From NCBI GenBank assembly GCA_964412365.1, contig CAYPOI010000005.1, positions 1 through 61,192 on the forward strand: a stretch of 61,192 bases of DNA, read 5' to 3'. Under the pieces are notes generated by a model. The model was given only the letters and a program-made list of their open reading frames with translations, had not been told where the DNA came from and searched no databases. Below are positions 14,895 to 28,537 of the stretch, in pieces. This DNA comes from an uncultured Chitinophagales bacterium (lineage in GTDB: Bacteria > Bacteroidota > Rhodothermia > Balneolales > HLUCCA01). Numbering within the stretch: position 1 is the stretch's first letter; every line of letters starts with the position of its first letter. The position numbers and the translations under genes are program-made.

Positions 14895-14986
14895 AGGATA
14901 ATGTAGATTGAACAAGATGACGGAAGGTATAAAAATAGGCAGGTCGCTTTAACGGTGTGCAATCCGTTGTGTTTCGAAGCGGTTCT

Positions 14987-15319
14987 TTAACCTTTTTTAT
15001 CAATCGACTCGACGATGGCCTGAACCGCCTTTCTGGCGGCAACTACTTTAAGTTCGGAAAATAGATTCGCAAAAAAGGACGCTTGACCGCGGGTGCGTCC
15101 GCCTGTTGCGGCCATGTAGCCGAAAGCTGCGGCAATGGTGAACGCTTGAAGCGGATATTTTTTGATCCAATACATGGGAGAGACTCTGGCCGTCACATCA
15201 TCCTTCACATCCTCGAAGGTATCGTTCACATGGTTCTCCAACCGGACAAGCTCGTCGCGCAGCGCTTGTTTTCGTGCTTCCAGATCCGAGATCCGGTTGA
15301 TCATGTCTTGTTCACTCAT
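14987..15319 (-). CDS. small membrane protein, third gene of a YqjD/YqjE/YqjK-like trio
   Basis: It has an N-terminal coiled coil (ISDLEARKQALRDELVRLENHV) followed by one hydrophobic segment (PLQAFTIAAAFGYMAATGG). Its ATG overlaps the upstream stop by 8 nt. Confidence 0.6.
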   Translation of the reverse strand: MSEQDMINRISDLEARKQALRDELVRLENHVNDTFEDVKDDVTARVSPMYWIKKYPLQAFTIAAAFGYMAATGGRTRGQASFFANLFSELKVVAARKAVQAIVESIDKKG

Positions 15320-15704
15320 CGGATTTGGACTCCTCGGTCGATTTCAATTCAGTTTTGGGTTGAAGCAAGGCGTTGAGTATAGACAGCTTCACCTTCTGTT
15401 CGATCAGTTTTGGCAAAAGAAGCCAACAGAAGAACGCAAAGACGAATAGCATGACGGCCACGATGATGAATCCACCGGCTGGATTTCGAAGAACCTCGCC
15501 CAAAAACATCGCAAGGGCCAACATCATAAACAAAATTCCAAGCCCAACGATGAACAAGATCACCATCGTAACGATGGCTTTCCCTGAAAACGAGCTGATC
15601 TGTTCACCGATTTCCAACGCCCACAATTGAATCCGAGTCTCCACAATGACACGGATATCATGTGGCAACTGCTTCAGACGATCGGTGATATCCGGATCAG
15701 TCAT
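15312..15704 (-). CDS. phage-holin-family / YqjE (DUF1469)-like membrane protein
   Basis: It has two long TM segments (AIVTMVILFIVGLGILFMMLALAMFL and GGFIIVAVMLFVFAFFCWLLLP) after an amphipathic N-terminus. The track start at 15728 is a TTG. I prefer ATG 15704 (ATGACTGA overlap with the upstream stop). Confidence 0.6.
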   Translation of the reverse strand: MTDPDITDRLKQLPHDIRVIVETRIQLWALEIGEQISSFSGKAIVTMVILFIVGLGILFMMLALAMFLGEVLRNPAGGFIIVAVMLFVFAFFCWLLLPKLIEQKVKLSILNALLQPKTELKSTEESKSDE

Positions 15705-15912
15705 CACTACCACTGAATAGGCGTCCAATCATGTACCCTACGACCACGGCGATACCGACCGCAACCAATGGATGCTCGCGGATAGCGACTTCCGCACGCT
15801 CTTTCAACTCTTCGATGCGCTCGCGCAATTCATCCAATTCGGGGAACTGCTGACTCAAATCCTCGAGCTCTTCCAATTTGCTGGTCAGCTTATCAACGGT
15901 TTTCTTACTCAT
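15697..15912 (-). CDS. DUF883 / YqjD-ElaB-like C-tail-anchored membrane protein
   Basis: It has a charged coiled-coil N-terminus and the family C-terminus HPLVAVGIAVVVGYMIGRLF. The track start at 15939 is a TTG. I prefer ATG 15912 (MSKKTVDKL). Confidence 0.6.
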   Translation of the reverse strand: MSKKTVDKLTSKLEELEDLSQQFPELDELRERIEELKERAEVAIREHPLVAVGIAVVVGYMIGRLFSGSDD

Positions 15913-15952
15913 GGCTTCATCCGATTGGTTAATTATCAATATAGAAAGCCTA

Positions 15953-17059
15953 TCACACTAAATCGAACTCTTTCCCTGCCGATTGTCGTATGATATTTTC
16001 GCATTCTAATGTGAGCAATTGTGTGAGAAGGATAGGCATCGAGCGTTTTAACCGGTCTTGCAACACATCGATATGTTGCCGACCCATCTCATCCAACAAC
16101 CGGCATATCGCGAGCAAATCCTCACTCAGCTCCACGCTTTTCCACCTGGGTTGAGGGGTTTCGACTCGAACACCGTTGGTCAACCACGGGAGTTCTTCAA
16201 GCATATCTCCGACCGACTCGACCAGCTTTCCGGTGCCTTCGCGGATGAGCCGATGCCCGCCACCCCCCTTTTTGGACGTGAGCGGATGGGGTATGACAAA
16301 CACTTCCCGGTTTTGATCGATCGCCAGTCGCGCGGTGATCATACTGCCTCCTGTCAGACCGGTTTCTACGACAAGAACGCCGAGGCTTAGTCCGCTCACG
16401 ACCCGATTCCGTACCGGGAAGTTCATGTAATCGGGTTTGGTACCGGGCGGAAATTCGGAGATTACGGCCCCACCCGTATCGATGATCTGCTCGGCGAGAT
16501 AGGTGTTCACACGCGGATAGATGCGGTCGATACCCGAACCCAGCACGGCAATGGTCTTCCCTTTCTGTTCGATGGTGACCTTATGGGCGATGGTATCGAT
16601 GCCGTAGGCCAAACCGGATATCACATTCAGTCCGGCACCAACAAGTCCTTGCGAGAACGCTTCCGCCATTTCACGTCCGTACACAGACGGCATGCGGGTG
16701 CCGATCACGCCCATCCCAGGCTCACTGAGGCAGTTCACATCCCCATTCACCCATAAGAGTAATGGCGGATCGAAAATCTCCTTGAGTTGCGCGGGATAGC
16801 GGGGATCATCGAGCGGAAGCAGATGGACGCCCAGCGTATGGGCTTTATCCAAAATGCGGTCGACTTCCTCCCATCCGGAAAAGGATAGGATTCCGTGCGC
16901 GACGGTTTTCCCGATGCCTTGGATAGACAGCAGATCGCGGGCTTTGAGCCGGAAGATGGATTCCGGCTCGGGAACAACAGAGAGTAACGTCTTGCTTCGG
17001 CGGGCGCCGAGGTTAGGAATCAGACTGAGGGCGATGATCGTACGTAGGGGATCCTGCAT
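15953..17059 (-). CDS. dprA: DNA-processing protein DprA
   Basis: It has IPNLGARRSKTLL (HhH-like N-terminus), a Rossmann-like core (VISGLAYGIDTIAHK, VLGSGIDRIYP) and a C-terminal winged-helix-like tail. Its start overlaps the obg 3' end by 47 nt. Confidence 0.88.
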   Translation of the reverse strand: MQDPLRTIIALSLIPNLGARRSKTLLSVVPEPESIFRLKARDLLSIQGIGKTVAHGILSFSGWEEVDRILDKAHTLGVHLLPLDDPRYPAQLKEIFDPPLLLWVNGDVNCLSEPGMGVIGTRMPSVYGREMAEAFSQGLVGAGLNVISGLAYGIDTIAHKVTIEQKGKTIAVLGSGIDRIYPRVNTYLAEQIIDTGGAVISEFPPGTKPDYMNFPVRNRVVSGLSLGVLVVETGLTGGSMITARLAIDQNREVFVIPHPLTSKKGGGGHRLIREGTGKLVESVGDMLEELPWLTNGVRVETPQPRWKSVELSEDLLAICRLLDEMGRQHIDVLQDRLKRSMPILLTQLLTLECENIIRQSAGKEFDLV

Positions 17060-18102: not shown

Positions 18103-21100
18103 TTAGGAACGAAAGGTATGGATGATGGCGTCTTTGTAGCCGAGTGTGCGCGCCCGACGGTACAGAAGGACCGCGTCTTCGAGTCGATCAGTGGGCCTTG
18201 AGCGCACAAAATATTGGTTTCCGATCTGAATCACATAGTTTTGGATTCCGGCTCGGCTGGTCAATCGTTGTGAAAGTTGGTACGCCTGCGCTTGAGTATT
18301 GAACAATCCGAACTGCACGGTGAATTCCATATCACGACTGTTCACATTCGGCTGGGTGATGAGGAACGCGTCTTTGAGATCCGTTTCAGACCGCAGACGG
18401 TCGCGTTCGGTGGATGCTGTCAAGAAATTGCTCATCGGCTCAAGCACCACTTTGAACTGGTTGAGGATCGCATCAAACAGCATGTGGCCTTTCAGGCCGT
18501 ATCGGGTGTTGATATCGGCGATATGACGAACCGCAGCCAGCGAATCCGAGAACGAGCCCACTTGAATCGCATAGAAGACGTCCTCGGTGGCGAAAATTTG
18601 CTCGCTGATGATGAACGCATCGGAGAATTGGGTTTTGCGCAGCGCGTTGATGGCGGCGAGCGCGTTTTCCAGCCCTTCGATCTCCGTGCTGAAGACGCGG
18701 TAATTGTCCCATCGGCGGCTGTATTGGATCTCATGCACCACCCCGGTCTGCTCCTCGATCTCCATCTTAGCCATGATGGCGCGAGCCAATGTGCTCATCG
18801 TGGCGGTCTGAACTCTGAAATATTGCGGTTTTACCACCACAGGTTCCACCACCGGTTCTTCAACCACAGGCACCGGAATCGGACGCAGTTTCAGATCGAA
18901 ATTCAATCCGGCGATGAAATCCCCTTCCGGAATCGATTGGACGGTGAAATCGATGAACGCGGGATGGGAATCCGATCTCAGAATATTGAGCTGGGTGGTG
19001 TCCACTTGAATCCGATACTCGCCTGGCGGTACTTCCATCGCATAGAACGATCCGTCGAAGAAGGTGATCACTTCCTTGCGCTCGTTCGTGGCCAAGTTGG
19101 TGTAGTAGAGACGCAAGCCACTGATGGACTGCACGTTGCCAGTGGCCGTTTCTCGCGTGGCTCCACCTTCAAAAATGCCGCTCGTACGGAAGGGGATTGA
19201 CAGGATTTTGTGCTGATTCGGATCGGTGATCACACCAAAACGCTCGATCGACGGAACCAATACCGGATTCTCCACCGCAGCCTTGTTCACTTCCACATCG
19301 TACTGGCGATATTGAAGCATTTGGGAATAAATGGCGAACCCTTTCACGGCGTGATACCGAGAACCGGCACCTTGGAAACGCAGGATGTTACCAGGTACCG
19401 ATTGCTCTTCCTTGTCTTTCACACCATTGTCATTGTTGTCGATATAGAGGTCGGCGATGACGGCCGAACGTCCTACCTGGCCTCGGTTGTCGAACCATAG
19501 CAGATTCATCGAAGGTTCATACGCCACCGCACCCCGAATCGATTGGTTCGACGACCATGCCTGGCTCGTGACACGGGTATTGGCACTGGTTCGGACGTAT
19601 TTGAAATCGAAACTAAGGGTCAGGAAAAACGCCGTGACATTGGTCGGTACGATGCGGGTCATGCTGAATTGGATCCGACCATCTCTTAGAAAACTCCGTG
19701 ACATTGTGAGATCGAATCGCTCCGGGTTGTGAATCGCATGAATGGCGTCGTACTGCGCACGCAAGAACATGCCACGCAATGGCAGCCAGACGCTGTTGTC
19801 ACGAGGCATCGTATATGTTGCCGAAACCTGATATCGGTCTTGAATGAGCTTCTCGCCAGTCGCATTCAGCACGCGGCTCGATCGGCGAAATCCACCACGT
19901 GTGGACACTTTTCCAAACCGCGAGTTCAAATCCAGACTGGTGCTTGATAGGATGAAAGCGGGAAATTGTGACCGGTCAAATGACGTCCGCACCGAAATTG
20001 GAGCCTTTTCGTAGGGGATGTTCACAAACAAGGCACCACCGGACTGATTCATGAGTCCGGTGGTGGCGATATCTGCCGATTCCGCATAAACGGTGTAATA
20101 GGCATTTGCGAAATCGCCTCTGGTGGTTTGATAGTACACATCCGATTTCAGGAAATTGCTGGGTGAAAACTCGGTGTTGACGAACAGGCCATCTTTAAGG
20201 CTGGCGTTGATGGTGGCGGATGTGAAGTTCTTCGTAACGTTGGATGGGGTTCTCAAGTATTCCGATGTGGCTCCAACGGTGAGATTTGGTGAGATCCCGT
20301 ATCCGCCGCGCACGTAGCCAAACTGATCATCACCACCTTCAAACACATTATCGTCCATTCCATACCCGGCGTCGTACCTGAATTCACCTTTGGGTACGAA
20401 ATTGAACGGGATACGGATGGTCCGGTTCGATTCGATCAGTTCGCCACCCGGACCATAGATTACCAACTTGATGTCGTTCGGACCATAGACGATGGGAATC
20501 TGAAACGTGAACCGTCCTTGATCGTCAGTGGTTGTGAAATCCGTGAGGCGATCGTTAATGAACAGCTCCACCTCCGAATCGGGCATCGTCAGCTCCGATA
20601 TGGTATAGAAATCGAACACCCGATCCGGATATAAGGGCTCATTCGTGAACCGGACGCCAGTCATGTTGCTTTTCAAGGTGCCACCAGTCGCATTGATATC
20701 GCCCACGAGGGTTTGCGACAACCAGGGATTGTCGCCATGGTAGTACCGATACCGCCAACTGTTGACCCCCGCTTCGGTTCCGGATTCGCTTCTCGCCACT
20801 TGCGAATTGACTTGGACATCTCCACCCAATAGTTCGGAACCAGTGATGAGCGATAAACTGTTGGTGAGCGAATTGCGGCTACTCAGATTTTGCTGATACG
20901 CATAATCCAGGAACCCTCCGTTGAAAAAACGAGGCTGACGTTTAAAGGCCACAGGAAATTCACCCCTCGACGCTGATTTCTCCCTTTCCAATCTCTCACG
21001 TAGACGCAAGCGTTCTTGGCGTAGCACGACTGGCAATTTCAGCGGTGTGACCAAACGTAGCATCAGATTCGAAAAATCGACGCGGAACTCAAGTTGAAAC

Positions 21101-21474
21101 ACGTCTTCAAATACAGCCTGGTCCAAATACAGATCCAACTCTCCCAGATATATCTGGTCTGCCGAAATACGAGTGGTGTTACCAGAGAGGGTCACAAACT
21201 GGTTTATAAAATCAACCACATACGGTTGCTTGTCGTTCAAATATGTACCGCGTGCAGTTGTGCCATTCGCATCCAAGGTGATTGGGATGTACAGTTGGCG
21301 GAACAATTCAGAGATCGGCAACAGGAACGCCTGCGTATCGGAATCGTAGTAGGCGATAAGGTTAATGTTTATACCGCCCTGATAATTGAATTGCAGAAAC
21401 ACCTCGTCGATCTCTCGCGCTGAGAGCGAAGATGACCAAACTGACAGAAGAAGAATGAAAATAAGCCGGTGCAA
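18103..21474 (-). CDS. usher-like outer-membrane assembly protein fused to three C-terminal SPOR repeats (1123 aa)
   Basis: It has a TTG start and a signal peptide (MHRLIFILLLSVWSSSLSA).
- The N-terminal domain resembles an usher NTD: ...LLPISELFRQLYIPITLD... and EFRVDFSNLMLRLVTPLK.
- An usher signature-like stretch lies at aa 300-357 (nt 20404-20577): SEVELFINDRLTDFTTTDDQGRFTFQIPIVYGPNDIKLVIYGPGGELIESNRTIRIPF. Compare the classical pattern V.V..NG......VP.GPF.I.DL....G.L.V.I.E.DG......VPY.
- A long Y/G/S-rich beta region follows, then two Ig-like C-terminal modules (EVPPGEYRIQVD).
- A Pro-rich linker (RPIPVPVVEEPVVEPVVVKPQ) precedes three SPOR-like repeats at aa 885-1123. Confidence 0.6.
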   Translation of the reverse strand: MHRLIFILLLSVWSSSLSAREIDEVFLQFNYQGGININLIAYYDSDTQAFLLPISELFRQLYIPITLDANGTTARGTYLNDKQPYVVDFINQFVTLSGNTTRISADQIYLGELDLYLDQAVFEDVFQLEFRVDFSNLMLRLVTPLKLPVVLRQERLRLRERLEREKSASRGEFPVAFKRQPRFFNGGFLDYAYQQNLSSRNSLTNSLSLITGSELLGGDVQVNSQVARSESGTEAGVNSWRYRYYHGDNPWLSQTLVGDINATGGTLKSNMTGVRFTNEPLYPDRVFDFYTISELTMPDSEVELFINDRLTDFTTTDDQGRFTFQIPIVYGPNDIKLVIYGPGGELIESNRTIRIPFNFVPKGEFRYDAGYGMDDNVFEGGDDQFGYVRGGYGISPNLTVGATSEYLRTPSNVTKNFTSATINASLKDGLFVNTEFSPSNFLKSDVYYQTTRGDFANAYYTVYAESADIATTGLMNQSGGALFVNIPYEKAPISVRTSFDRSQFPAFILSSTSLDLNSRFGKVSTRGGFRRSSRVLNATGEKLIQDRYQVSATYTMPRDNSVWLPLRGMFLRAQYDAIHAIHNPERFDLTMSRSFLRDGRIQFSMTRIVPTNVTAFFLTLSFDFKYVRTSANTRVTSQAWSSNQSIRGAVAYEPSMNLLWFDNRGQVGRSAVIADLYIDNNDNGVKDKEEQSVPGNILRFQGAGSRYHAVKGFAIYSQMLQYRQYDVEVNKAAVENPVLVPSIERFGVITDPNQHKILSIPFRTSGIFEGGATRETATGNVQSISGLRLYYTNLATNERKEVITFFDGSFYAMEVPPGEYRIQVDTTQLNILRSDSHPAFIDFTVQSIPEGDFIAGLNFDLKLRPIPVPVVEEPVVEPVVVKPQYFRVQTATMSTLARAIMAKMEIEEQTGVVHEIQYSRRWDNYRVFSTEIEGLENALAAINALRKTQFSDAFIISEQIFATEDVFYAIQVGSFSDSLAAVRHIADINTRYGLKGHMLFDAILNQFKVVLEPMSNFLTASTERDRLRSETDLKDAFLITQPNVNSRDMEFTVQFGLFNTQAQAYQLSQRLTSRAGIQNYVIQIGNQYFVRSRPTDRLEDAVLLYRRARTLGYKDAIIHTFRS

Positions 21475-21560
21475 CCTGATAAATCCGTAGGGTTTTCCAG
21501 GATGGAAGGTAGGCAGAGCGCTCCGTTCTATTCGATTATAGTTTCCTTATTCCGTCGGAT

Positions 21561-22385
21561 TCAGAACCGTACCTGGAAGGTCTGACGTACCAATTCCATC
21601 GGGATTTGCTCGGAGGAAGGAATGTCGCGCCGATTTGTGGAAAACGACAGCGTTACGGTATAAGCGCCAGGCGTGATTTCATCCAGGGGCATCTGAAAAT
21701 TGCGTTTCCCAGTCTCAAAAATCGTGGTGGTCTGTTGCTCTTCAAAAACAGTTCTGCCGTTGGCGTCTTTGACCACTGCATCGATGGTTCCGAGAAAGGG
21801 AGAGTTGGCGACGAGTGCGACATCGTACACGAGCAATAGATTGCTATCGGTTTTTGCAAATTGAACGTTCGATGGAACCACCGCAGTGCGAAACGCGCCT
21901 TTGGTATAGTAAACCCCAAGAACCTGTTCGAAAATGAAACTGATTTGGGTTCCTACGCCGCCGACTTCTGTTTGCTGAATCACCGCCGATTGAGGAGTGG
22001 ATCGAACTTTCACGCGAGTCCAATACGTGCCGTCTCCAAGCGTGGACGGAGGACGTACCGTAAGGCGTACCGTTTGTCGCTGACCCGGTTCCAACATGAA
22101 CGTGCGCGGAAAACTGCGGACATATTCGGAGATCGATTTCTGATCGGCAAGGGACGTCGAATCGCTGAACATCATCGTGATGTTGCCCAGTGAATCGGAG
22201 ACTGTGTACCCGAATGTAAACTCCACGGCGATCTCTTGCGCCTGATTGGAATTGTTGGTCACCAAAAACGACCCGAAATTATTGTTGCCAATAAAGATGG
22301 TGGTTGGGGATATGGAAACCTGAGCATGAACCGTATTCAACCCGATCAGTGCCACAGTAAAAAAGAGGACAACAAATAGTCTCAT
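21561..22385 (-). CDS. PapD-like periplasmic pilus chaperone
   Basis: The signal peptide is MRLFVVLFFTVALIGLNTVHAQ. The mature N-terminus is VSISPTTIFIGNNNFGSFLVTNNSNQAQEIAVEF, which parallels the PapD-type start V.L..TR.IF......S..V.N....P.L.Q.WI. The segment FPRTFMLEPGQRQTVRL parallels the chaperone PPLFRL.PG..Q.LRI strand. The mature size of about 250 aa fits two Ig-like domains. Confidence 0.62.
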   Translation of the reverse strand: MRLFVVLFFTVALIGLNTVHAQVSISPTTIFIGNNNFGSFLVTNNSNQAQEIAVEFTFGYTVSDSLGNITMMFSDSTSLADQKSISEYVRSFPRTFMLEPGQRQTVRLTVRPPSTLGDGTYWTRVKVRSTPQSAVIQQTEVGGVGTQISFIFEQVLGVYYTKGAFRTAVVPSNVQFAKTDSNLLLVYDVALVANSPFLGTIDAVVKDANGRTVFEEQQTTTIFETGKRNFQMPLDEITPGAYTVTLSFSTNRRDIPSSEQIPMELVRQTFQVRF

Positions 22386-22464
22386 ATGATGCGTTAAGAT
22401 TCGATCTGTAAGGTGAGGTACATTCTTCGTCTAAGTTAGAAGGTAACCATTTCCATGTGTAACG

Positions 22465-22499
22465 CCCTAAAATAAGAAAACATGCGGTATCGCATGTTT
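22465..22499 (-). terminator. second hairpin terminator in tandem
   Basis: The hairpin AAACAUGCG-AUAC-CGCAUGUUU has a perfect 9-bp stem (22478-22499). It is followed by UCUUAUUUU and lies 4 nt after the first terminator's U-tract. Confidence 0.6.
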
Positions 22500-22503
22500 A
22501 TGC

Positions 22504-22538
22504 AAAAAAAAAGGCGGCACCTTTAGAGGTGTCGCCTT
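22504..22538 (-). terminator. Rho-independent terminator after subunit 5
   Basis: The minus-strand RNA is AAGGCGACACC-UCUAAA-GGUGCCGCCUU. This gives a 10/11 bp stem followed by a run of nine U (plus-strand A-run at 22504-22512). It begins 22 nt after the stop codon. Confidence 0.8.
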
Positions 22539-22560
22539 ATAATTCGCTGTTATGTCGAAA

Positions 22561-23091
22561 TCAGAGGTAAATGGCACTTACAGTGAGAGCGCCGGAGTAG
22601 AGTCCGCCGATTGAATCACCTGTTGGTGCTGTAAATGAACCACCAATGTACAAGGTATTACCTGTCGCCAGAGTTGCACCTGTCGTTGTGTTCAACGTGT
22701 ACGCTGTTGGACTGGCAGAATTCACCGCAAAATTTAGAGTAACCGTTATATTAGCGGCCGGAGTAGTTCCACCACCGCTTACATATGGAAGTAAAATGGT
22801 CGGTGTCGCCGTTTGTCCAGAGATACTTAAACCGCTAACTGTGTAAACGGTTGCAGTAGTGGCAGTGGATGTGATTACAGCACGCTTAGCCGTTGAACCT
22901 GCATTGGTAGCGACGTTCGTTGTAGCGAGTACAGAGACGGCGTCTCCGGCCTCTACGTTTCCGTAGACCAAGTCATCTACTTTCGTGAGAGCAAAAGCGT
23001 CGCGAATAGTTGTGGTTACATTCACAGTAGCTGTTTGGGCTATAGAGAGGGCCGGCGCGAGAATTAATGCGAGAACTATGAGTTTTTTCAT
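22561..23091 (-). CDS. DUF4402/SCPU-like secreted subunit 5, candidate major fibre subunit (176 aa)
   Basis: I take the start at ATG 23091 (MKKLIVLALILAPALSIAQ, a signal peptide) rather than the track's 23190. The mature protein is Thr/Ala/Ser/Gly-rich. It has the N-proximal motif DLVYGNV and the C-terminus GGLYSGALTVSAIYL. Two intrinsic terminators follow it. Confidence 0.7.
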   Translation of the reverse strand: MKKLIVLALILAPALSIAQTATVNVTTTIRDAFALTKVDDLVYGNVEAGDAVSVLATTNVATNAGSTAKRAVITSTATTATVYTVSGLSISGQTATPTILLPYVSGGGTTPAANITVTLNFAVNSASPTAYTLNTTTGATLATGNTLYIGGSFTAPTGDSIGGLYSGALTVSAIYL

Positions 23092-23234
23092 GATAATGTC
23101 AGAGTGATAAGAAAGGTTGATAAGAATGTGTTTGTGTGGGCTTTGAGTAAATTTACGTGACTTTGTTCCTGATTTACCATTAGGTTTCATTAATAAAACC
23201 TAGGAGATAGGGTAAATGATGGCCAAATATTAAG

Positions 23235-23774
23235 CTAATCATAGAAAATGATCATGTTCACTTCGCCGAGATATTGGCCTGGAATCGCATCCTTGGTCTC
23301 GACTTTGCCGAAGACAAAGATGGTCATTTGCAGCATGTTCAATTGCTCCTGACCCTCATTCTGAGGCTGAAAGGGAAGGAAAAAATTGGCCTTGTATTGG
23401 TCGACGATCACCGCCCGAGCGTTTCGCCGTCCCGCTTCCAACACCCCGCTATTTGACCAAGCATACGACAGATCCACGCTGATGCGGCACCAATCCTCCT
23501 GGCAGTTCTTGTACTCCTCGTGGATCAGATATTGCGGCGTGTCTATGGAAACACCCACTAGAGAATAAATCAATCCGTTGATGGTGAAGATCCCAACTCG
23601 GGCATCTTCGAGCGTGATCTCCACATCATCGGACATGTTAAGCTGACCAAAATCCAGCTTCAGCTCAGCCTCGATGTTCACTTCGGGTTCCACTTGTACC
23701 GCGAACTGCACGAACTGAGCACTCGTCATCCAAGGAATCCCGAATGCAAACAATGTCAACCAAATGTTACGCAT
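23235..23774 (-). CDS. DUF4402/SCPU-like secreted subunit 4 (179 aa)
   Basis: The signal peptide is MRNIWLTLFAFGIPWMTSAQ. It has the motif KLDFGQL, a CQEDWC pair, and the C-terminus GQYLGEVNMIIFYD. Its ATG overlaps the subunit-3 stop (TGATG). Confidence 0.65.
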   Translation of the reverse strand: MRNIWLTLFAFGIPWMTSAQFVQFAVQVEPEVNIEAELKLDFGQLNMSDDVEITLEDARVGIFTINGLIYSLVGVSIDTPQYLIHEEYKNCQEDWCRISVDLSYAWSNSGVLEAGRRNARAVIVDQYKANFFLPFQPQNEGQEQLNMLQMTIFVFGKVETKDAIPGQYLGEVNMIIFYD

Positions 23775-24343
23775 CAGTTGTAAATGATTTCGATTGTCAC
23801 AGAGTTGGTAAAACTCCCGACCGTTTCGCTACCTGATGTGGTGATGGTGCCACCCACATACAAAAATACAGTTGATAGAGGCAAGGAAGCTTGGGCAATT
23901 TGGGGCGTGGGTGGCGGAGCGGGTGGGCCAGATCCTCGCTTGATCATGGGTATGCGAACCGTACTGGTGACAAATGACGTATTGCCGGTCATGTTGTCGA
24001 GAAAGGTATTCGTATTGTTATAGGCGAAGGTGTAGGTAATCGCGGATCGGCATGAGGATGTCACACATGTATCATCTCCGTTCAAATACACGAATGCGGG
24101 AGCGGTGATGGTGACAAAAATATCGAGATAGCGGATGGCTTCGATGTTGAGCGCGGCCTCATCGCCCGATCCGATCAAAATCACTTTGCTGTCACCGGAA
24201 ACAATGGTTCCGAATGTGAGATTTCGCTCAACAATCAAGTTGGCACTGGAGGTGTAATACGAACCAAAATTGATCTCTTGCGCGTTGAGGGCTGAAGAAG
24301 CACTGATCGTGTAGAGTAAAATAAGGGTCCGTATCCATCTCAT
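23774..24343 (-). CDS. DUF4402/SCPU-like secreted subunit 3 (189 aa)
   Basis: The signal peptide is MRWIRTLILLYTISASSALNAQ, from ATG 24343 (24346 is a GTG). It has the motif NLTFGTI, a CVTSSC pair, a Pro-rich insert (GSGPPAPPPTPQ), and the C-terminus GSFTNSVTIEIIYN. Confidence 0.65.
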   Translation of the reverse strand: MRWIRTLILLYTISASSALNAQEINFGSYYTSSANLIVERNLTFGTIVSGDSKVILIGSGDEAALNIEAIRYLDIFVTITAPAFVYLNGDDTCVTSSCRSAITYTFAYNNTNTFLDNMTGNTSFVTSTVRIPMIKRGSGPPAPPPTPQIAQASLPLSTVFLYVGGTITTSGSETVGSFTNSVTIEIIYN

Positions 24344-24861
24344 CACAAGTACTCGATTTCAATCGTGAACTCGCCTTGATAGGCGCCAAATTGGATGTTC
24401 TCGATGCTGGCGAAGCCACCGATCCAAAAATAAAATTCCCCGGTGCTGCTCATGGTGAGTGTGCGATTCTCTTGAGTCAAGATCTCGGAGGTGAGTTGAT
24501 TGTCTGTAACCGCACCGGCAACGGTGTACGTGAAGTTGATGGTACTTCCACCCCCAATCCGAATCAGTTCCCGTTGTTCAATGAAGGAAACTCGGATGGC
24601 CGCATTGGGCCTGCCGGAGGCTTTCATCAGTCCGGCACCCGCATCTGTTTTCGGATCGAGACGAAGCTCGTTCGCATCGATGTTGAGCCGACCAAAATTC
24701 ATGTTGGAGATGGTAACCAGCTCCACCGTGGAAAGAATTGAGGTTGAAACTGTAACGATGACTCTATCGTCCGACCGCGCAGGATTTGATTGACCAAGAA
24801 CCAATGTTGGCAACAGCATGATTCCTAAAAAACATATCGTACGTCCTGTTTGTCTACGCAT
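24343..24861 (-). CDS. DUF4402/SCPU-like secreted subunit 2 (172 aa)
   Basis: The signal peptide is MRRQTGRTICFLGIMLLPTLVLGQ. It has the motif NMNFGRL and the C-terminus GAYQGEFTIEIEYL. Confidence 0.68.
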   Translation of the reverse strand: MRRQTGRTICFLGIMLLPTLVLGQSNPARSDDRVIVTVSTSILSTVELVTISNMNFGRLNIDANELRLDPKTDAGAGLMKASGRPNAAIRVSFIEQRELIRIGGGSTINFTYTVAGAVTDNQLTSEILTQENRTLTMSSTGEFYFWIGGFASIENIQFGAYQGEFTIEIEYL

Positions 24862-24926
24862 GAGAGTAAAATACCGATTTCAATTCAGCTCGCACCGTTA
24901 GAACCGATTAACAATCGGATACACGC

Positions 24927-24959
24927 AAAAACCCACCCGGATGGTCAAATCCGAGCGGG
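24927..24959 (-). terminator. Rho-independent terminator after subunit 1
   Basis: The minus-strand RNA is CCCGCUCGGAU-UUGACC-AUCCGGGUGGG followed by UUUUUG. The 11-bp stem has two G-U pairs in this orientation; in the opposite orientation those positions would be A-C mismatches. Confidence 0.7.
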
Positions 24960-24986
24960 TAGTTTGCAATCAGGAGATTCGTTCGG

Positions 24987-25391
24987 TCAGTTGTAAAAGG
25001 CCGATACGATGTAGGTCTGTGGCATCGAGCTCATGTGAGCGGTGTCGATCGTGATGCGCTTGACCTGCGTTGGGTTGGTTTTGCCGTAGCTTAGAATGGT
25101 TTCGTTCGACGAAAGGGTGTAGGTGGCTTCAACCGATTGCGTGTTCGGGATGGATGTACTGAGCGTGGTCATGGATGTGTCTCCTGAGTTCTGTGATTGC
25201 ATGACAGAAAACACCACGTCGCTTAGGCTGGAGCTCGTCACCCGGATTTCATCATCCGAGCTTGACAGGTCCAAGCGGGTCGATTCAACTACCGTCGCAC
25301 GGATCTGCATGGAAGCAGAGGCGGTCCGCTGAGCCATTGCGGCTGTTGCGGTGAGTGCGATAAAGAGGAAGGTTGTGATCGAGCGTTTCAT
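24987..25391 (-). CDS. small Ser/Thr-rich secreted protein (134 aa), divergent first gene of the fibre cluster
   Basis: The signal peptide is MKRSITTFLFIALTATAAMAQ. The C-terminus YIVSAFYN keeps the penultimate Tyr, but the protein lacks the xLxFG and GxYxG motifs of subunits 2-5. Its own terminator follows it. Confidence 0.6.
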   Translation of the reverse strand: MKRSITTFLFIALTATAAMAQRTASASMQIRATVVESTRLDLSSSDDEIRVTSSSLSDVVFSVMQSQNSGDTSMTTLSTSIPNTQSVEATYTLSSNETILSYGKTNPTQVKRITIDTAHMSSMPQTYIVSAFYN

Positions 25392-25629
25392 GGTGTCGTC
25401 CTGATTGTTTCAACAGGAGAAACCTACTGCCTTCGACCCTCTTTATTAACCCATCATATTAACGATGTATGATATTTAACTACGTAAGTGCAATTTTAAA
25501 TGTTAAATTTTAAATGACTTACGCCTTAATTAGATTTATTATGAATAATAAATACATTGATTGTAGATAATATTTATACAACTTTGCATACCCATATCAT
25601 TTAAAATTCCTTTGGGCTGAACGTCGTGC
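25392..25629 (-). promoter_or_regulatory. AT-rich upstream region of the fibre cluster (probable promoter/operator region)
   Basis: This 238-nt spacer is the longest and most AT-rich in the window. It contains a 14-nt tandem duplication (25489-25516) bracketed by a perfect 7-bp inverted repeat: CGTAAGT (25483-25489) and ACTTACG (25517-25523). I could not assign -35/-10 or -33/-7 boxes by eye. Confidence 0.5.
25489..25516. repeat. 14-nt tandem duplication TGCAATTTTAAATG / TTAAATTTTAAATG
   Basis: This was read directly from the sequence. It shares 25/26 nt (25492-25517) with 29834-29859. Confidence 0.9.
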
Positions 25630-26517: not shown

Positions 26518-27111
26518 TCAAAAATACAAAGGTTCGAGGTCTTCGGCACGAACGGGTTTCGTTTTGCCGGCTAGCACCTCGCTCAATATGCCCATGGCGG
26601 AGATGCTCTCCGATCCCATCACATGCACCCCTTTGAGCGATTCAGGCGGAAATCGAAGCTGCCCTGTTCCGGCCAGCACATCCCCTATTCGCAGTCGTTT
26701 CGCCATGTCATTGATTTCGACGATGGCGGATTCGGTATACACATGCTGCCTTCTGGCATCTAAGATGGCGTGGATGGAGGCATCCGGATACAGTTTTCCG
26801 GCCATTTGCGCGATGCCGGCCAACGTATTGATGGCGTAAACCGGAGTATCGAGTCCGTACAACATTCCTTTCACGGCCGAGGCACCGATGCGTAGCCCGG
26901 TGAAAGATCCGGGTCCGGCGCTCACAGCCACGGCATCCACGTCTTGAATCGTCATCCCTTCCGAAACCAACAGTTCGCGGATGAAGCGAAATACGGCTTC
27001 GGAGTGGATTCCCCGCTCTTCTGACCGCAGTTCCTTGGGGTCCCGACCCGGTAATGACAAAGCCACCGAGCAGACCGGTGTGGCGGTTTCGATGGCCAGA
27101 ATTCGTTGCAT
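26518..27111 (-). CDS. tsaB: tRNA t6A37 biosynthesis protein TsaB
   Basis: It has MQRILAIETATPVCSVAL...VAVSAGPGSFTGLRIG, which is diagnostic of the YeaZ/TsaB family. Confidence 0.85.
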   Translation of the reverse strand: MQRILAIETATPVCSVALSLPGRDPKELRSEERGIHSEAVFRFIRELLVSEGMTIQDVDAVAVSAGPGSFTGLRIGASAVKGMLYGLDTPVYAINTLAGIAQMAGKLYPDASIHAILDARRQHVYTESAIVEINDMAKRLRIGDVLAGTGQLRFPPESLKGVHVMGSESISAMGILSEVLAGKTKPVRAEDLEPLYF

Positions 27112-27148
27112 CGCCCAATATACCGCAGTAAATCCGTATCATCGGAAC

Positions 27149-28537
27149 GTGAAATTCATCCCCGTCATACTCCTGCTGCTGACCTCGTGCATCCCTGCCA
27201 ACGATGGAACCTTCACCGGTCGAGTACGCTCAAGCGATGCCCAGAACCTGGCAATCATCCGTCCAGGCATTCATTATAAATACGCACCTGGCGACACCAC
27301 CTGGCTGCAAACCGACCAGAATGGACGATTCCGATTCTCTACCCCATTGCAAGCCAACACCCGTTTCGAACTCGTGTTGGGCGGAAGGAAGTTGCCCATC
27401 ATTCTATCCCCCGGAAAATCCTTGGATTTTGATGCGGTTGACCAGTCATTCTCGGGATGGTTCGGCGACCTGCACAATCAATATCTCGATCTGATGGAGC
27501 AGGATGCGCAATTGATGGAACGGATCCGAGCTGAACGCGAGAATTTCGTGGCGGGCAACATCACCCCGACGCTCGACTTTTATCAGTTTCGGATGCGGAT
27601 GGCCACCGAAGTCTTCGGCGACACGCCCATGCGTTCCGTGGTGCACCGGATGTCGGGCGAATACATCATCAAGCAATTGGATGCCCTTCGGTTCGCGCCC
27701 GAATCCATTAACCGGGATCAGATTTTGCAGGATGCGGTGGCGCATGGATTCTTCACCTATGAATCGTTTGTGGCGCAACGTGCCGGGATTCGGGATTTCA
27801 CGGACGCGTGGATCAAATCCTTTCCGGGTCGGGATTTGACCTTGACGGAAGCCGATTGGAAACGCAACCAAGCCCCGCAGCTTGATTCGCTTCGCAACCT
27901 CGTCACTCGCCACATCAGCGACCGCCGCGCCCGAGCCCACGCCGCGATGTTCCTTCTTGCCGAACGCCTCACCGAAGCCCCCTTCCCCTATGCCGAGGCT
28001 TCCTACCACGATTACATCGACCGCTATTCCGATTATCCCGAAAACATCGCTTTTTTGCGCACGCTGTATGAGGATCTGAAACAGGTCCAGCCCCCGAATC
28101 CTGCGATTCCGTTCGAACTGCCGGACCCATACGGTGCCATGGTGAGCTTGGAGGATGTGAAAGGCACGTTCGTCCTGCTGGATTTCTGGGCGTCGTGGTG
28201 CGCGCCGTGCCTGGCTGAATTTCCGCATATGAAACGCCTTCACGCTGAATACAGCCGCAAGGATGTGATATTCATCAGTATTTCGACTGAAGAAGATGAG
28301 CAGATCTGGCGCGATTACCTGGCGGCGGATCCCCATCCCTGGATCCAAGTCTATGCCGGTGGCGGCTTCCTGCATCCGCTGTTTCAGGCCTACAAGGGCG
28401 GTGGCATTCCGTTTTATGTGCTGCTCGACCGCAATGGAAACATCTACCGGTACAATGATTTCAGGCCCTCATCCAACCTGAAAGAGATTCTCGACGCCGC
28501 GCTCACCGCCGAATTCCCGGCGCGATCTATCCCGTAA
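27149..28537 (+). CDS. TlpA/redoxin-family thiol:disulfide oxidoreductase lipoprotein with a large N-terminal domain
   Basis: The C-terminal thioredoxin fold has FVLLDFWASWCAPCLAEFPHM and GGIPFYVLLDRNG. The start is uncertain. GTG 27149 gives an ideal lipoprotein signal (M)KFIPVILLLLTSC. ATG 27092 would overlap the divergent tsaB start. Confidence 0.8.
   Translation: MKFIPVILLLLTSCIPANDGTFTGRVRSSDAQNLAIIRPGIHYKYAPGDTTWLQTDQNGRFRFSTPLQANTRFELVLGGRKLPIILSPGKSLDFDAVDQSFSGWFGDLHNQYLDLMEQDAQLMERIRAERENFVAGNITPTLDFYQFRMRMATEVFGDTPMRSVVHRMSGEYIIKQLDALRFAPESINRDQILQDAVAHGFFTYESFVAQRAGIRDFTDAWIKSFPGRDLTLTEADWKRNQAPQLDSLRNLVTRHISDRRARAHAAMFLLAERLTEAPFPYAEASYHDYIDRYSDYPENIAFLRTLYEDLKQVQPPNPAIPFELPDPYGAMVSLEDVKGTFVLLDFWASWCAPCLAEFPHMKRLHAEYSRKDVIFISISTEEDEQIWRDYLAADPHPWIQVYAGGGFLHPLFQAYKGGGIPFYVLLDRNGNIYRYNDFRPSSNLKEILDAALTAEFPARSIP

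What the first reader, a model, noticed from the sequence alone, without database searches (positions are those of the whole stretch)
18103..25391. Non-canonical chaperone-usher-like fibre cluster built from DUF4402/SCPU-like subunits in an FCB-type genome
Seven co-oriented genes form the only clearly accessory block in the window. They sit between the housekeeping pairs accD/tsaB and obg/dprA, with no mobility genes nearby.

The order is:
1. A divergent small secreted protein.
2. Three tightly coupled small secreted proteins, with 1-nt TGATG overlaps.
3. A Thr/Ala-rich candidate major subunit.
4. A 274-aa protein with PapD-like strands (VSISPTTIFIG..FLVTNNSN and FPRTFMLEPGQRQTVRL).
5. An 1123-aa protein with an usher-like N-domain and the usher-type motif SEVELFINDRL...GRFTFQIPIVYGPNDIKLVIYGPGGELIESNRTIRIPF.

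The subunits do not look like classical Fim/Pap pilins. They are not lipoprotein-type Bacteroidota type V pilins either, since they lack a lipobox. By eye they resemble the uncharacterised DUF4402 family and the SCPU/Csu archaic pilins.

To my knowledge, no DUF4402-based assembly system has been studied experimentally.
Basis: partly seen in the sequence, partly recalled or inferred. Interest (0 to 1): 0.85.

Follow-up and report, generated by a model that had tools for sequence, protein, structure and literature searches.

The report
Deep-branching chaperone–usher pilus gene cluster
This is a seven-gene operon-like block for an unstudied branch of the chaperone–usher surface-fibre machinery, found across Bacteroidota-type bacteria, whose building blocks are the uncharacterised DUF4402 proteins and whose outer-membrane pore carries cell-wall-binding SPOR domains.

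Summary
Seven co-oriented minus-strand genes (18103–25391) lie between accD/tsaB and obg/dprA. All quoted motifs and both TGATG overlaps are present.

- **Usher.** The 1123-aa protein's family matches genuine ushers profile-to-profile (97.6%, 524 columns, barrel plus plug). It ends in two to three SPOR domains.
- **Chaperone.** The 274-aa protein models confidently as a two-Ig-domain fold, and its best PDB matches are almost all pilus chaperones. It keeps the superfamily's invariant proline and the F1 arginine typical of non-classical chaperones. It lacks the classical Arg/Lys pair.
- **Subunits.** S2–S5 are paralogous DUF4402-type proteins. The S5 type aligns end-to-end with Csu (SCPU) archaic pilins, including the donor-strand segment. 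S1 is only weakly linked.
- **Distribution.** The order subunits→chaperone→usher recurs in Balneolales, Bacteroidales, Cytophagales, Rhodothermales, Ignavibacteria and Zixibacteria. There are 389 usher loci and 2718 chaperone clusters.
- **Distance.** Similarity to archaic and classical systems is weaker than their similarity to each other.
- **Literature.** No paper in the searchable library mentions DUF4402.

Verdict: a real, unstudied variant of the chaperone–usher pathway. Fibre formation and donor-strand exchange are inferred, not shown.

The parts
25392..25629 (-). AT-rich intergenic region upstream of S1; probable promoter/regulatory region (not tested).
   Evidence: Sequence. Only weak sigma-70-like matches were found.
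24987..25391 (-). S1: a 134-aa secreted small protein. It is a divergent, short, DUF4402-like candidate subunit; membership is weak.
   Evidence: ORF. Signal peptide ends ...AMA|QR. The N-terminal strand is ASMQIRATVVES and the penultimate residue is Tyr. hhalign to S4 reaches only 36%. 2 of 10 S1-like orthologues give sub-threshold DUF4402 hits. An S1-like gene is linked to the cluster on either side in at least 12 loci.
24931..24960 (-). Terminator-like hairpin plus T-run directly after S1.
   Evidence: 12 pairs, 7 G-C. The same position is occupied in L001, and a hairpin lies about 115 nt after the S1-like gene in L004.
24343..24861 (-). S2: a 172-aa DUF4402-type subunit, first of a translationally coupled triad.
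   Evidence: Pfam DUF4402 E 1.2e-3, 20.0 bits, below the 25.2 cut-off. A UniRef source names an orthologue as a DUF4402 protein. AF2 model pLDDT 77.6; the best PDB matches are the pilins CfaB, FimA, Caf1 and CsuA/B. C-terminus GAYQGEFTIEIEYL has Gly at -14 and Tyr at -2.
23774..24346 (-). S3: a 190-aa DUF4402-type subunit (189 aa if it starts at ATG 24343) with a Pro-rich insert and a Cys pair.
   Evidence: Pfam DUF4402 E 4.8e-4, 21.2 bits, below the 25.2 cut-off. hhalign S3-S4 99.8% and S3-S5 97.8%. TGATG overlap with S2.
23235..23774 (-). S4: a 179-aa paralogous subunit.
   Evidence: No direct Pfam hit. hhalign S4-S3 99.8%, S4-S2 97.1%, S4-S5 96.8%. TGATG overlap with S3. Mature N-terminus is QFVQFAVQVEPEV.
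22561..23091 (-). S5: a 176-aa Thr/Ala-rich subunit and candidate major subunit; homologous end-to-end to Csu/SCPU archaic pilins.
   Evidence: Start corrected. hhalign of the S5-type family against CsuA/B+CsuA+CsuB gives 93.8%, E 1.7e-7, 142 columns. QTATVNVTTTI lies opposite the CsuA/B donor-strand segment. The S5 type is the only subunit type in the Zixibacteria and Ignavibacteria loci.
22478..22536 (-). Two terminator-like hairpins between S5 and the chaperone gene; the first is followed by a run of nine T. Candidate attenuator that sets the subunit:machinery ratio.
   Evidence: A hairpin occupies the same position after the S5-type gene in L001, L002 and, with an unrelated sequence, L004.
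21561..22385 (-). 274-aa periplasmic PapD-like chaperone of the non-classical type.
   Evidence: - AF2 pLDDT 88, pTM 0.78.
- Foldseek PDB top 50 are nearly all chaperone-usher chaperones, E 1e-9 to 3e-7.
- hhalign to E. coli chaperones 90-95% and to CsuC 94.7%.
- Invariant P93 and R124 align to CsuC/EcpB Pro59/60 and Arg89. The G1 residues I148/F150/F152/Q154 lie opposite the CsuC donor residues.
18103..21474 (-). 1123-aa outer-membrane usher with a C-terminal SPOR extension.
   Evidence: hhalign of its family against five E. coli ushers: 97.6%, E 2.8e-12, 524 columns. 3 of 20 homologues hit Pfam Usher, two above the gathering score. The signal peptide is conserved in orthologues.
19249..20961 (-). 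Usher-homologous core (residues 172-742): beta-barrel with the inserted plug domain.
   Evidence: Aligned range.
20410..20607 (-). Plug-domain segment (about residues 290-355) holding SEVELFINDRL...IRIPF.
   Evidence: It aligns with the FimD plug segment AQVTIKQNGYDIY...FTVPYSSVP. The Pfam Usher matches in homologues cover profile positions 20-202.
18133..18828 (-). SPOR repeats (residues 883-1114): two confident and one sub-threshold. Predicted peptidoglycan anchor.
   Evidence: Pfam SPOR 23.8 and 23.3 bits (cut-off 21); the middle repeat scores 14.6 bits. NCBIfam gives an RlpA-like match at 1041-1082.

Best explanation
The block encodes a complete chaperone-usher (CU) assembly system. It belongs to a deep-branching lineage that is widespread in the FCB group: Balneolota, Bacteroidota, Rhodothermota, Ignavibacteriota and Zixibacteria.

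Proposed steps; all of them are inferred from homology and none was observed directly:
1. Five small DUF4402-type proteins are exported by Sec. Their signal peptides are cleaved before Gln.
2. The 274-aa two-domain chaperone captures them in the periplasm. It inserts its G1 strand (I148/F150/F152...) into the subunit's incomplete Ig fold. It anchors the subunit's C-terminal carboxylate with the invariant F1 arginine R124 and probably Tyr242 of domain 2. This is the mode used by archaic and alternative chaperones such as CsuC and EcpB, not the classical Arg8/Lys112 pair.
3. Chaperone-subunit complexes dock on the 1123-aa usher, a plugged beta-barrel in the outer membrane. There each subunit's N-terminal strand of alternating hydrophobic residues (for example QTATVNVTTTI in S5) replaces the chaperone strand of the previous subunit. 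This donor-strand exchange extrudes a fibre.
4. S5 is the major subunit. It is the ancestral subunit type, is followed by a conserved terminator-like hairpin, and is homologous to CsuA/B.
5. The translationally coupled S2-S3-S4 triad supplies stoichiometric minor, tip or adaptor subunits. S1 is a separately terminated, divergent extra subunit of unknown role.
6. The C-terminal SPOR repeats tether the usher to peptidoglycan.
For: **Usher**
- Profile-profile match to FimD/SfmD/HtrE/YehB/EcpC: 97.6%, E 2.8e-12, over 524 columns covering barrel and plug. Confirmed at 96.6% over 555 columns against the four classical ushers, and at 94.6% against CsuD.
- Pfam Usher hits in 3 of 20 homologues, two above the gathering score.

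**Chaperone**
- AF2 model pLDDT 88.
- The Foldseek PDB top hits span both domains of FimC, PapD, CfaA, EcpB, Caf1M, SafB and CsuC.
- hhalign 95% to E. coli chaperones and 94.7% to CsuC.
- PapD_N is the most frequent Pfam hit among 145 family representatives, 16 of 145.
- Only P27, P93 and R124 are invariant in those 145 sequences. P93 and R124 align to Pro59/60 and Arg89 of CsuC and EcpB. PMC4654587 names that proline as invariant across the CU superfamily. It names that arginine as the hallmark of non-classical chaperones.
- The low-confidence F1-G1 loop (residues 131-150) is followed by an alternating hydrophobic G1 strand.

**Subunits**
- 45 of 96 cluster-linked small proteins hit DUF4402, best E 7e-12.
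- S2-S5 are mutually homologous at 93-99.8%.
- The S5 type against Csu SCPU pilins gives 93.8% over 142 columns, including the donor-strand and C-terminal F-strand regions.
- The S2 model best matches CfaB, FimA, Caf1 and CsuA/B.
- S2-S5 carry Gly at -14 and Tyr at -2, the classic pilin C-terminal signature (sequence; established knowledge of Pap/Fim subunits).

**Synteny**
- Subunits, chaperone and usher keep their order in about 30 of 33 chaperone-anchored loci.
- Among 55 usher-anchored loci with at least 3 kb upstream, 49 have the chaperone, 50 have subunits and 47 have both.

**Expression architecture**
- Terminator-like hairpins after S5 and after S1 are positionally conserved in diverged loci.

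**SPOR**
-.
Against: - No Pfam or NCBIfam model recognises the window's chaperone or usher directly.
- Sequence profiles of the chaperone and of S2 find nothing in the PDB.
- The usher N-terminal 140 residues match no usher N-domain.
- Foldseek TM-scores are modest: 0.4-0.66 for the chaperone and 0.4-0.55 for S2. WxLIP proteins score about as well as the pilus chaperones.
- The S2 model has low confidence exactly at the proposed donor strand (pLDDT 40-49).
- No two-domain tip adhesin is encoded.
- Donor-strand complementation, fibre formation, expression and SPOR-peptidoglycan binding were not and could not be tested here.
- The assignment of S5 as major subunit and of S2-S4 as minor subunits is inference from gene order, terminators and distribution.
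Confidence: 0.8

Rival explanations
1. It is simply an ordinary member of the already known archaic (sigma) chaperone-usher class, the Csu/CupE/Mcu type, rather than a separate lineage. The mechanism would be the same as in the best explanation; only the classification would differ.
For: - Archaic systems are reported in a wide range of phyla (PMC9452303).
- The chaperone carries the non-classical F1 arginine and scores best against CsuC: 94.7% versus 68% for classical and 44% for Ecp.
- S5-type subunits are homologous to SCPU pilins.
Against: - None of 96 subunits hits Pfam SCPU, whereas 45 hit DUF4402.
- CsuD resembles classical ushers far more (99.8%, E 6e-30, 688 columns) than the new family resembles either CsuD (E 7e-8, 165 columns) or classical ushers (E 6e-10).
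- Most family ushers fail the Pfam Usher model.
- Only Acinetobacter Csu sequences represented the sigma class, and no phylogeny was built.
Confidence: 0.25
2. The machinery is chaperone-usher type but the product is not a long pilus. The DUF4402 proteins would form a surface coat, a capsule-like polymer or short oligomers. The precedents are the Caf1 capsule and the Myxococcus spore-coat protein U (from general knowledge).
For: - The SCPU relatives take their name from a spore-coat protein.
- S5 is Thr/Ala/Gly-rich and has no obvious adhesin domain.
- No two-domain tip adhesin is encoded.
- Caf1 is among the structural matches of S2.
Against: - Having five or more distinct subunit types, with a conserved coupled triad, is typical of composite pili with tip fibrillae.
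- Nothing in the data discriminates the morphology.
Confidence: 0.15
3. It is not a chaperone-usher system at all. An unrelated outer-membrane barrel with carboxypeptidase-regulatory-like domains, and generic Ig-fold periplasmic or surface proteins (for example WxLIP-like), would resemble CU parts only by fold convergence.
For: - Direct library searches fail.
- Generic Ig-like families (fn3_5, WxLIP_PGBD, NPCBM_assoc) score near PapD_N.
- WxLIP structures appear among the Foldseek hits.
Against: - Collinear profile alignment over more than 520 usher columns, including the plug insertion.
- The chaperone's only invariant residues coincide with the functionally defined Pro and Arg of CU chaperones.
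- Full-length subunit homology to CsuA/B.
- Strict three-component synteny across phyla.
- WxL systems belong to monoderm bacteria and no WxL-domain partner is present.
Confidence: 0.04

Closest known systems
Archaic (sigma) chaperone-usher pili: Csu of Acinetobacter baumannii (CsuA/B-A-B-C-D-E), CupE of Pseudomonas
   Same: - Same three components and the same gene order: subunits, then chaperone, then usher.
- The chaperone shares the invariant D1 proline, the F1 arginine carboxylate anchor, the alternating G1 donor residues and the following Y-x-K-G motif.
- S5-type subunits align end-to-end with CsuA/B. The alignment covers the N-terminal donor strand, the L-x-F-G motif and the C-terminal G-x-Y...Y/F strand.
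   Different: - The subunits belong to Pfam DUF4402, not SCPU; 0 of 96 hit SCPU.
- The SCPU cysteine pair is absent from S1, S2 and S5.
- There is no CsuE-like two-domain tip adhesin.
- The usher is much more distant from CsuD than CsuD is from classical ushers, and it carries SPOR domains.
- The host range is the FCB group.
Classical chaperone-usher pili (type 1 Fim, P pili Pap, Caf1/F1)
   Same: - Usher barrel plus plug is collinear over about 550 columns.
- The chaperone has the two-Ig-domain fold.
- The subunit C-terminus has Gly at -14 and a penultimate Tyr.
- There is a terminator-like element after the putative major subunit gene, as after papA/fimA (the latter from general knowledge).
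   Different: - The classical carboxylate anchor pair Arg8/Lys112 is absent. The aligned positions are Thr and Gly/Ser/Ala.
- Pilin Pfam families do not match.
- The usher N-domain is not recognisable.
- There are no lectin-type adhesins.
- The host is not a beta- or gamma-proteobacterium.
Alternative chaperone-usher pili (CFA/I, ECP)
   Same: The non-classical F1 arginine (YWTR-V versus YYR-I in EcpB/EcpE) and the D1 proline. CfaB is the best structural match of the S2 model.
   Different: Profile similarity to EcpB/EcpE is weak (44-56%), and to EcpC it is absent.
Type V pili of Bacteroidota (FimA/Mfa1)
   Same: Both are surface fibres built from Ig-like subunits by strand exchange in the same phylum (general knowledge).
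   Different: Type V pilins are lipoproteins that are processed by a protease and need no usher or chaperone. Here there is no lipobox, and a chaperone and an usher are present.
SPOR-domain and OmpA-domain envelope proteins (RlpA, FtsN, DamX)
   Same: The C-terminal repeats match Pfam SPOR and the RlpA C-terminus. One family member carries an OmpA domain instead.
   Different: Here the SPOR repeats are fused to an outer-membrane usher. No paper in the searched library describes such a fusion.

Membership tests
Chaperone-usher pathway (superfamily) | Outer-membrane usher homologous to FimD/PapC (Pfam Usher PF00577): beta-barrel with an inserted plug domain. | tested here: met
   - The window protein itself has no Pfam Usher hit.
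- 3 of 20 homologues do: 29.5 and 27.5 bits against a gathering score of 27.1.
- Family profile against five E. coli ushers: 97.6%, E 2.8e-12, 524 columns.
Chaperone-usher pathway (superfamily) | Periplasmic chaperone with two Ig-like domains (PapD fold). | tested here: met
   - AF2 pLDDT 88.
- The Foldseek PDB top 50 are almost all CU chaperones, aligned over about 250-280 columns, E down to 1.8e-9.
- hhalign 95%.
- PapD_N hits in 16 of 145 relatives, best E 1.3e-5.
Chaperone-usher pathway (superfamily) | Invariant proline that kinks strand D1 of the chaperone (PMC4654587). | tested here: met
   P93 is invariant in 145 representatives. It aligns with EcpB Pro60 and CsuC Pro59.
Chaperone-usher pathway (superfamily) | Subunits with an incomplete Ig fold completed by a donor strand, from the chaperone G1 strand and then from a neighbour's N-terminal extension. 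| tested here: inconclusive
   - The pilin-like fold of S2 is supported.
- The S5 N-terminus aligns with the CsuA/B donor strand.
- N-terminal strands of alternating hydrophobic residues are conserved.
Chaperone-usher pathway (superfamily) | Subunit C-terminal signature: penultimate aromatic residue and Gly about 14 residues from the end. | tested here: met
   By sequence, S2, S3, S4 and S5 all have Gly at -14 and Tyr at -2. The motif is conserved in orthologues. S1 keeps Tyr at -2 but not the Gly.
Chaperone-usher pathway (superfamily) | Subunit, chaperone and usher genes clustered and co-oriented. | tested here: met
   for the window. for more than 70 loci.
Chaperone-usher pathway (superfamily) | A polymeric fibre on the cell surface that depends on the chaperone and usher. 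| not testable with these tools
   This needs genetics and electron microscopy.
Classical CU class | Carboxylate anchor pair in domain 1 (PapD Arg8/Lys112; Caf1M Arg20/Lys139). | tested here: not met
   The aligned positions are Thr (ISPTT) and Gly/Ser/Ala/Pro (EQVLGVYY) throughout the family.
Non-classical (archaic + alternative) CU chaperones | Super-conserved arginine in strand F1 that binds the subunit carboxylate (CsuC/EcpB Arg89). | tested here: met
   R124 is invariant in 145 sequences. It aligns with Arg89 of both EcpB and CsuC.
Non-classical (archaic + alternative) CU chaperones | Domain-2 Tyr and Arg (CsuC Tyr196/Arg174) completing the anchor. | tested here: inconclusive
   G240 and Y242 are nearly invariant, and R228 is nearly invariant among close relatives. 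G240 aligns with the Gly before CsuC Tyr196, but the domain-2 alignment has low confidence.
Archaic (sigma) CU class | Subunits of the SCPU family (Pfam PF05229). | tested here: not met
   0 of 96 cluster-linked subunits hit SCPU at E<=0.01. Only remote profile-level homology exists, for the S5 type.
Archaic (sigma) CU class | Usher and chaperone nest within the sigma clade in a phylogeny. | not tested
   Only hhalign scores against Acinetobacter Csu were obtained. They suggest an outgroup position, but no tree was built and other sigma lineages were not sampled.
DUF4402 (Pfam PF14352) | Match to the family model at or above the gathering score (25.2 bits). | tested here: inconclusive
   - Window S2 scores 20.0 bits and S3 scores 21.2 bits, both below the cut-off. 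S1, S4 and S5 have no hit.
- At family level, 45 of 96 orthologues and paralogues match at E<=0.01, best 7e-12.
- S2-S5 are mutually homologous.
Type V pilins (Bacteroidota FimA/Mfa) | Lipoprotein signal peptide with a lipobox cysteine. | tested here: not met
   All five signal peptides end in a small residue followed by Gln. No Cys lies near the cleavage site.
SPOR domain (PF05036) | Match above the gathering score (21 bits). | tested here: met
   The whole protein scores 43.8 bits. Single repeats score 23.8 and 23.3 bits, and the middle repeat 14.6 bits.

The most novel reading that the evidence does not exclude
The FCB-group DUF4402 systems would be a fourth, previously unrecognised major class of the chaperone-usher pathway. 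This class would branch outside both the classical and the archaic (sigma) classes. Its ushers would often be tethered to peptidoglycan through SPOR, OmpA or TPR extensions, possibly positioning fibre assembly at septal or denuded glycan. If so, chaperone-usher assembly would be an ancient feature of diderm bacteria well beyond Proteobacteria. It would also coexist with type V pili in Bacteroidota.
Probability: 0.45. Interest if true: 0.75.

Novelty: new variant of a known kind. Interest (0 to 1): 0.64.

Why it matters
Chaperone-usher pili are among the best understood bacterial assembly machines, but almost all knowledge comes from Proteobacteria. In Bacteroidota the textbook fibre is the unrelated type V pilus.

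This cluster shows that a large, conserved and unannotated CU lineage exists across the FCB group. It comprises 2718 chaperone clusters at 50% identity, and 389 usher loci among species-representative genomes.

It assigns a concrete role to the DUF4402 family, as pilin-like subunits. It provides a distant outgroup for reconstructing how donor-strand complementation and the two carboxylate-anchor solutions evolved. It also reveals ushers fused to peptidoglycan-binding SPOR domains, which raises a testable idea about the spatial control of fibre assembly.

Cultured hosts make experiments feasible: Algoriphagus jejuensis, Cecembia lonarensis, Gracilimonas mengyeensis and Rhodohalobacter halophilus.

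Tried and rejected
- **Direct family searches.** Pfam and NCBIfam scans of the seven window proteins gave only sub-threshold DUF4402, plus SPOR and a carboxypeptidase-regulatory-like domain.
- **PDB sequence searches.** HMM profiles of the chaperone family (22 and 145 sequences), the usher family and the S2 family found no chaperone, usher or pilin. The links appear only with profile-profile or structure comparison.
- **Failed scan.** A genome scan seeded with the 145-sequence chaperone alignment failed because no stretch was conserved enough.
- **Literature.** Searches for DUF4402/PF14352/IPR025514, for chaperone-usher with Bacteroidota, and for SPOR domain with usher returned nothing relevant.
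- **Type V pili rejected.** There is no lipobox.
- **Type IX secretion cargo rejected.** The subunits have no C-terminal sorting domain. The weak Por_Secre_tail hits in 7 of 145 chaperone relatives are probably beta-sandwich noise.
- **WxL/WxLIP system rejected.** That system belongs to monoderms and no WxL partner is present.
- **Mobile island rejected.** The chromosomal slot is conserved in L001, L002 and partly in L004/L005. No mobility genes, tRNAs or Rfam elements were found.
- **S3 as a tip subunit without a donor strand.** I dropped this idea because the S3 N-terminus is collinear with that of S4.
- **Not modelled.** The usher structure and chaperone-subunit complexes could not be modelled because the two structure jobs went to the chaperone and to S2.

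Full report
**1. Observation**

- S1: 24987-25391, 134 aa.
- S2: 24343-24861, 172 aa.
- S3: 23774-24346, 190 aa.
- S4: 23235-23774, 179 aa.
- S5: 22561-23190 as listed. The sequence shows that the sensible start is the ATG at 23091 (MKKLIVLALIL..., 176 aa).
- A 274-aa protein: 21561-22385.
- An 1123-aa protein: 18103-21474.

All quoted motifs are present. Both S2/S3 and S3/S4 junctions read TGATG. The flanks are Obg and DprA on one side and AccD and TsaB on the other, all above NCBIfam cut-offs. G+C dips to 0.47-0.48 over the subunit genes. No tRNA or Rfam element lies in the window. Every product begins with a signal-peptide-like segment ending in a small residue before Gln (Arg for the usher), and none has a lipobox cysteine.

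**2. The usher**

The 1123-aa protein gives no direct Pfam Usher hit. It matches only SPOR and a carboxypeptidase-regulatory-like beta-sandwich.

Its homologues form a family (alignment A2). Three of 20 members hit Pfam Usher. Two exceed the gathering score (29.5 and 27.5 bits against 27.1), over profile positions 20-202, which is the first barrel strands plus the plug.

I fetched genuine ushers from E. coli K-12 (FimD, SfmD, HtrE, YehB, EcpC) and compared profiles. The result was 97.6% probability, E 2.8e-12, over 524 collinear columns. These cover residues 172-742 of the window protein and about positions 161-752 of the usher profile. A repeat run gave 96.6% over 555 columns against the four classical ushers, and 94.6% against Acinetobacter CsuD.

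The first ~140 residues match nothing, so the 'usher-like N-domain' is not verified.

The C-terminus carries two confident SPOR repeats (23.8 and 23.3 bits, cut-off 21) and one sub-threshold repeat. In other lineages the core usher is about 860-890 aa without SPOR. One member carries OmpA or TPR instead, or a much longer SPOR-containing tail is present.

**3. The chaperone**

The 274-aa protein has no significant family or PDB sequence match, and the word-indexed search found only 21 homologues.

With that alignment AlphaFold2 gave a confident two-domain all-beta model (pLDDT 88.0, pTM 0.78). One loop, residues 131-150, has low confidence.

The Foldseek top 50 PDB matches are almost entirely chaperone-usher chaperones: FimC, PapD, CfaA, EcpB, Caf1M, SafB, FaeE, DraB, YadV, CupB2 and CsuC. 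They align over both domains with E 1.8e-9 to 3e-7. A few WxLIP entries are interspersed.

Profile-profile comparison with six E. coli chaperones gave 90.1%.

An exhaustive HMM search of 1.84 billion representatives found 2718 clusters at E<=1e-3 and 408 at E<=1e-30. With 145 of these (A7) the probability rose to 95%. PapD_N was the commonest Pfam hit, in 16 of 145.

In A7 only P27, P93 and R124 are invariant. Pakharukova et al. (PMC4654587) make three relevant statements:
- A D1 proline is the only residue invariant across the whole CU superfamily.
- Classical chaperones use an Arg/Lys pair in domain 1 instead.

Alignments place P93 on EcpB Pro60 and CsuC Pro59, and R124 on Arg89 of both. The classical pair positions are Thr and Gly/Ser/Ala in this family. 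I148/F150/F152/Q154 lie opposite the CsuC donor residues V110/F112/M114/Y116, and are followed by a shared Y-x-K-G motif. The nearly invariant G240-x-Y242 may correspond to the G-Y196 of CsuC, but that part of the alignment is weak.

**4. The subunits**

S2 and S3 give sub-threshold DUF4402 hits (20.0 and 21.2 bits against 25.2). A UniRef source names an S2 orthologue a DUF4402 protein.

I collected 96 small secreted proteins from the related loci. Of these, 45 hit DUF4402 (best E 7e-12) and none hits SCPU.

Family-level hhalign shows that S2, S3, S4 and S5 are paralogues (93-99.8%). S1 is barely connected (36% to S4 over 30 residues). Only 2 of 10 S1-like proteins give weak DUF4402 hits.

I recalled the CsuA/B sequence and verified it as identical to PDB 7ZL4 chain A. 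I fetched csu operons from Acinetobacter genomes and compared them. The S5-type family matches CsuA/B+CsuA+CsuB at 93.8%, E 1.7e-7, over 142 columns. For scale, SCPU against classical Fim pilins gives 94.3%.

That alignment runs from the mature N-terminus to the C-terminal strand. QTATVNVTTTI lies opposite AVTGQVDVKLNI, the segment removed as the 'donor sequence' in the CsuC-CsuA/B crystal construct. The alignment continues through the L-x-F-G motif to the C-terminal G-x-Y...Y/F strand.

An AF2 model of S2 (pLDDT 77.6, core above 84, proposed donor strand 40-49) best matches CfaB, FimA (including self-complemented forms), Caf1 and CsuA/B, with E 4e-4 to 4e-2. Unrelated folds have clearly lower probabilities.

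S2-S5 all carry Gly at -14 and Tyr at -2, the classic pilin C-terminal signature.

Donor-strand complementation itself was not modelled.

**5. Conservation and distribution**

A chaperone-seeded genome scan gave 33 loci. In about 30 of them the order S2-S3-S4-(S5 type)-chaperone-usher is kept. The same accD/tsaB...obg/dprA slot is used in the closest relatives, and the obg/dprA side in two loci about 43% identical. The block is therefore vertically inherited, not a recent insertion.

A usher-seeded scan found 389 loci. The best 80 include Balneolales, Bacteroidales (Prolixibacteraceae, Lentimicrobiaceae, Mariniphaga), Rhodothermales, Ignavibacteriaceae, Zixibacteria and the cultured Gracilimonas mengyeensis.

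Of 55 loci with at least 3 kb upstream of the usher gene, 49 have the chaperone, 50 have DUF4402-like subunits and 47 have both.

Zixibacteria and Ignavibacteria loci carry three to five S5-type genes and no S2-S3-S4 triad. The S5 type is therefore probably ancestral.

**6. Expression architecture**

Terminator-like hairpins with T-runs follow S1 (24960-24931) and S5 (22531-22518, then nine T; a second hairpin at 22499-22478). Hairpins occupy the same positions in L001, L002 and, with an unrelated sequence, L004. This fits high expression of S5 (and S1) relative to the chaperone and usher, as known for major-subunit genes of classical operons (general knowledge). The TGATG coupling of S2-S3-S4 suggests equimolar minor subunits. 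These functional assignments are inference.

**7. Position among known classes**

By hhalign, the chaperone family is about as close to CsuC (94.7%, E 6e-8) as CsuC is to classical chaperones (96.1%).

The usher family is much further from CsuD (E 7e-8, 165 columns) and from classical ushers (E 6e-10) than those two are from each other (E 6e-30, 688 columns).

Together with DUF4402 rather than SCPU subunits, this points to a separate deep lineage whose mechanism is closest to the non-classical systems. However, only Acinetobacter represented the sigma class and no tree was built. Membership in a broad sigma clade cannot be excluded; I put it at about 0.25.

**8. Literature**

Searches of the library found no paper mentioning DUF4402, PF14352 or IPR025514. 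Only two irrelevant papers combine chaperone-usher with Bacteroidota. No paper describes a SPOR-bearing usher. Reviews state that classical and alternative systems are confined to beta- and gamma-Proteobacteria, while archaic systems occur in many phyla.

**9. Verdict**

This is a real, complete and conserved chaperone-usher-type system of an unstudied lineage.

It is a new variant of a known kind, not a categorically new mechanism. Three things are new:
- The DUF4402 subunit family gets a role.
- The lineage has breadth and depth across the FCB group.
- The usher is tethered to peptidoglycan.

The assembly mechanism, fibre morphology and subunit roles are inferred from homology and gene architecture. 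They need multimer modelling and experiments.

Noticed in passing
window 14987-15939 (- strand): Three small overlapping ORFs lie downstream of dprA. The 80-aa one matches the DUF883 C-terminal glycine zipper (ElaB/YqjD type, 27.2 bits). The 138-aa one matches Phage_holin_3_6 (YqjE-like, E 3.5e-10). The 110-aa one matches nothing. Together they look like a yqjD-yqjE-type membrane stress trio.
   Followed up: partly
window 26981-28537 (+ strand): A 518-aa ORF has a C-terminal thioredoxin/TlpA/ResA-like domain at residues ~359-447. As listed, it overlaps tsaB on the other strand by 131 nt, so its real start is probably further downstream.
   Followed up: partly
L015 14447-15963: This Balneolaceae locus has a second chaperone homologue (15130-15963) and an extra S5-like gene (14447-14998) just downstream of its usher. 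This looks like a partial second cluster.
   Followed up: no
L008/L009 (also L054/L093), Balneolaceae bacterium ANBcel3 contigs 92 and 100: One isolate genome carries two near-identical copies of the whole cluster on two contigs, each with extra S5-type genes.
   Followed up: no
L111, L113, L120, L122, L129, L130: Six Bacteroidales/Lentimicrobium loci have usher homologues of about 1000-1450 aa. None has a chaperone homologue within 5 kb upstream. Three of them have only an S5-like gene nearby. This may be a different sub-architecture.
   Followed up: no
L011, L078, L083, L088: Cluster-bearing contigs are assigned to MAGs named Limnohabitans, Thioalkalivibrio, Nitriliruptoraceae and a Methanofastidiosia archaeon. 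The contigs are short and their proteins resemble Balneolales/Bacteroidales versions, so mis-binning is the likely cause.
   Followed up: no
L021, L023, L027, L030, L031, L032 (Rhodohalobacter and relatives): The ushers here are about 1450-1466 aa, with a roughly 600-aa C-terminal extension containing SPOR. An S1-like gene sits just downstream on the opposite strand in five of the six (not L030), followed there by a dihydrolipoamide acyltransferase-like gene (judged by eye).
   Followed up: partly
alignment A7 (145 chaperone-family representatives): Seven members give weak hits to the type IX secretion C-terminal sorting domain (Por_Secre_tail, best E 2e-4). This is probably beta-sandwich similarity in domain 2, but it was not examined.
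   Followed up: no
window 21000-25000: G+C is 0.47-0.48 across the subunit and chaperone genes, against 0.52-0.58 in the flanking housekeeping genes. This holds even though the block occupies a conserved chromosomal slot in relatives.
   Followed up: partly
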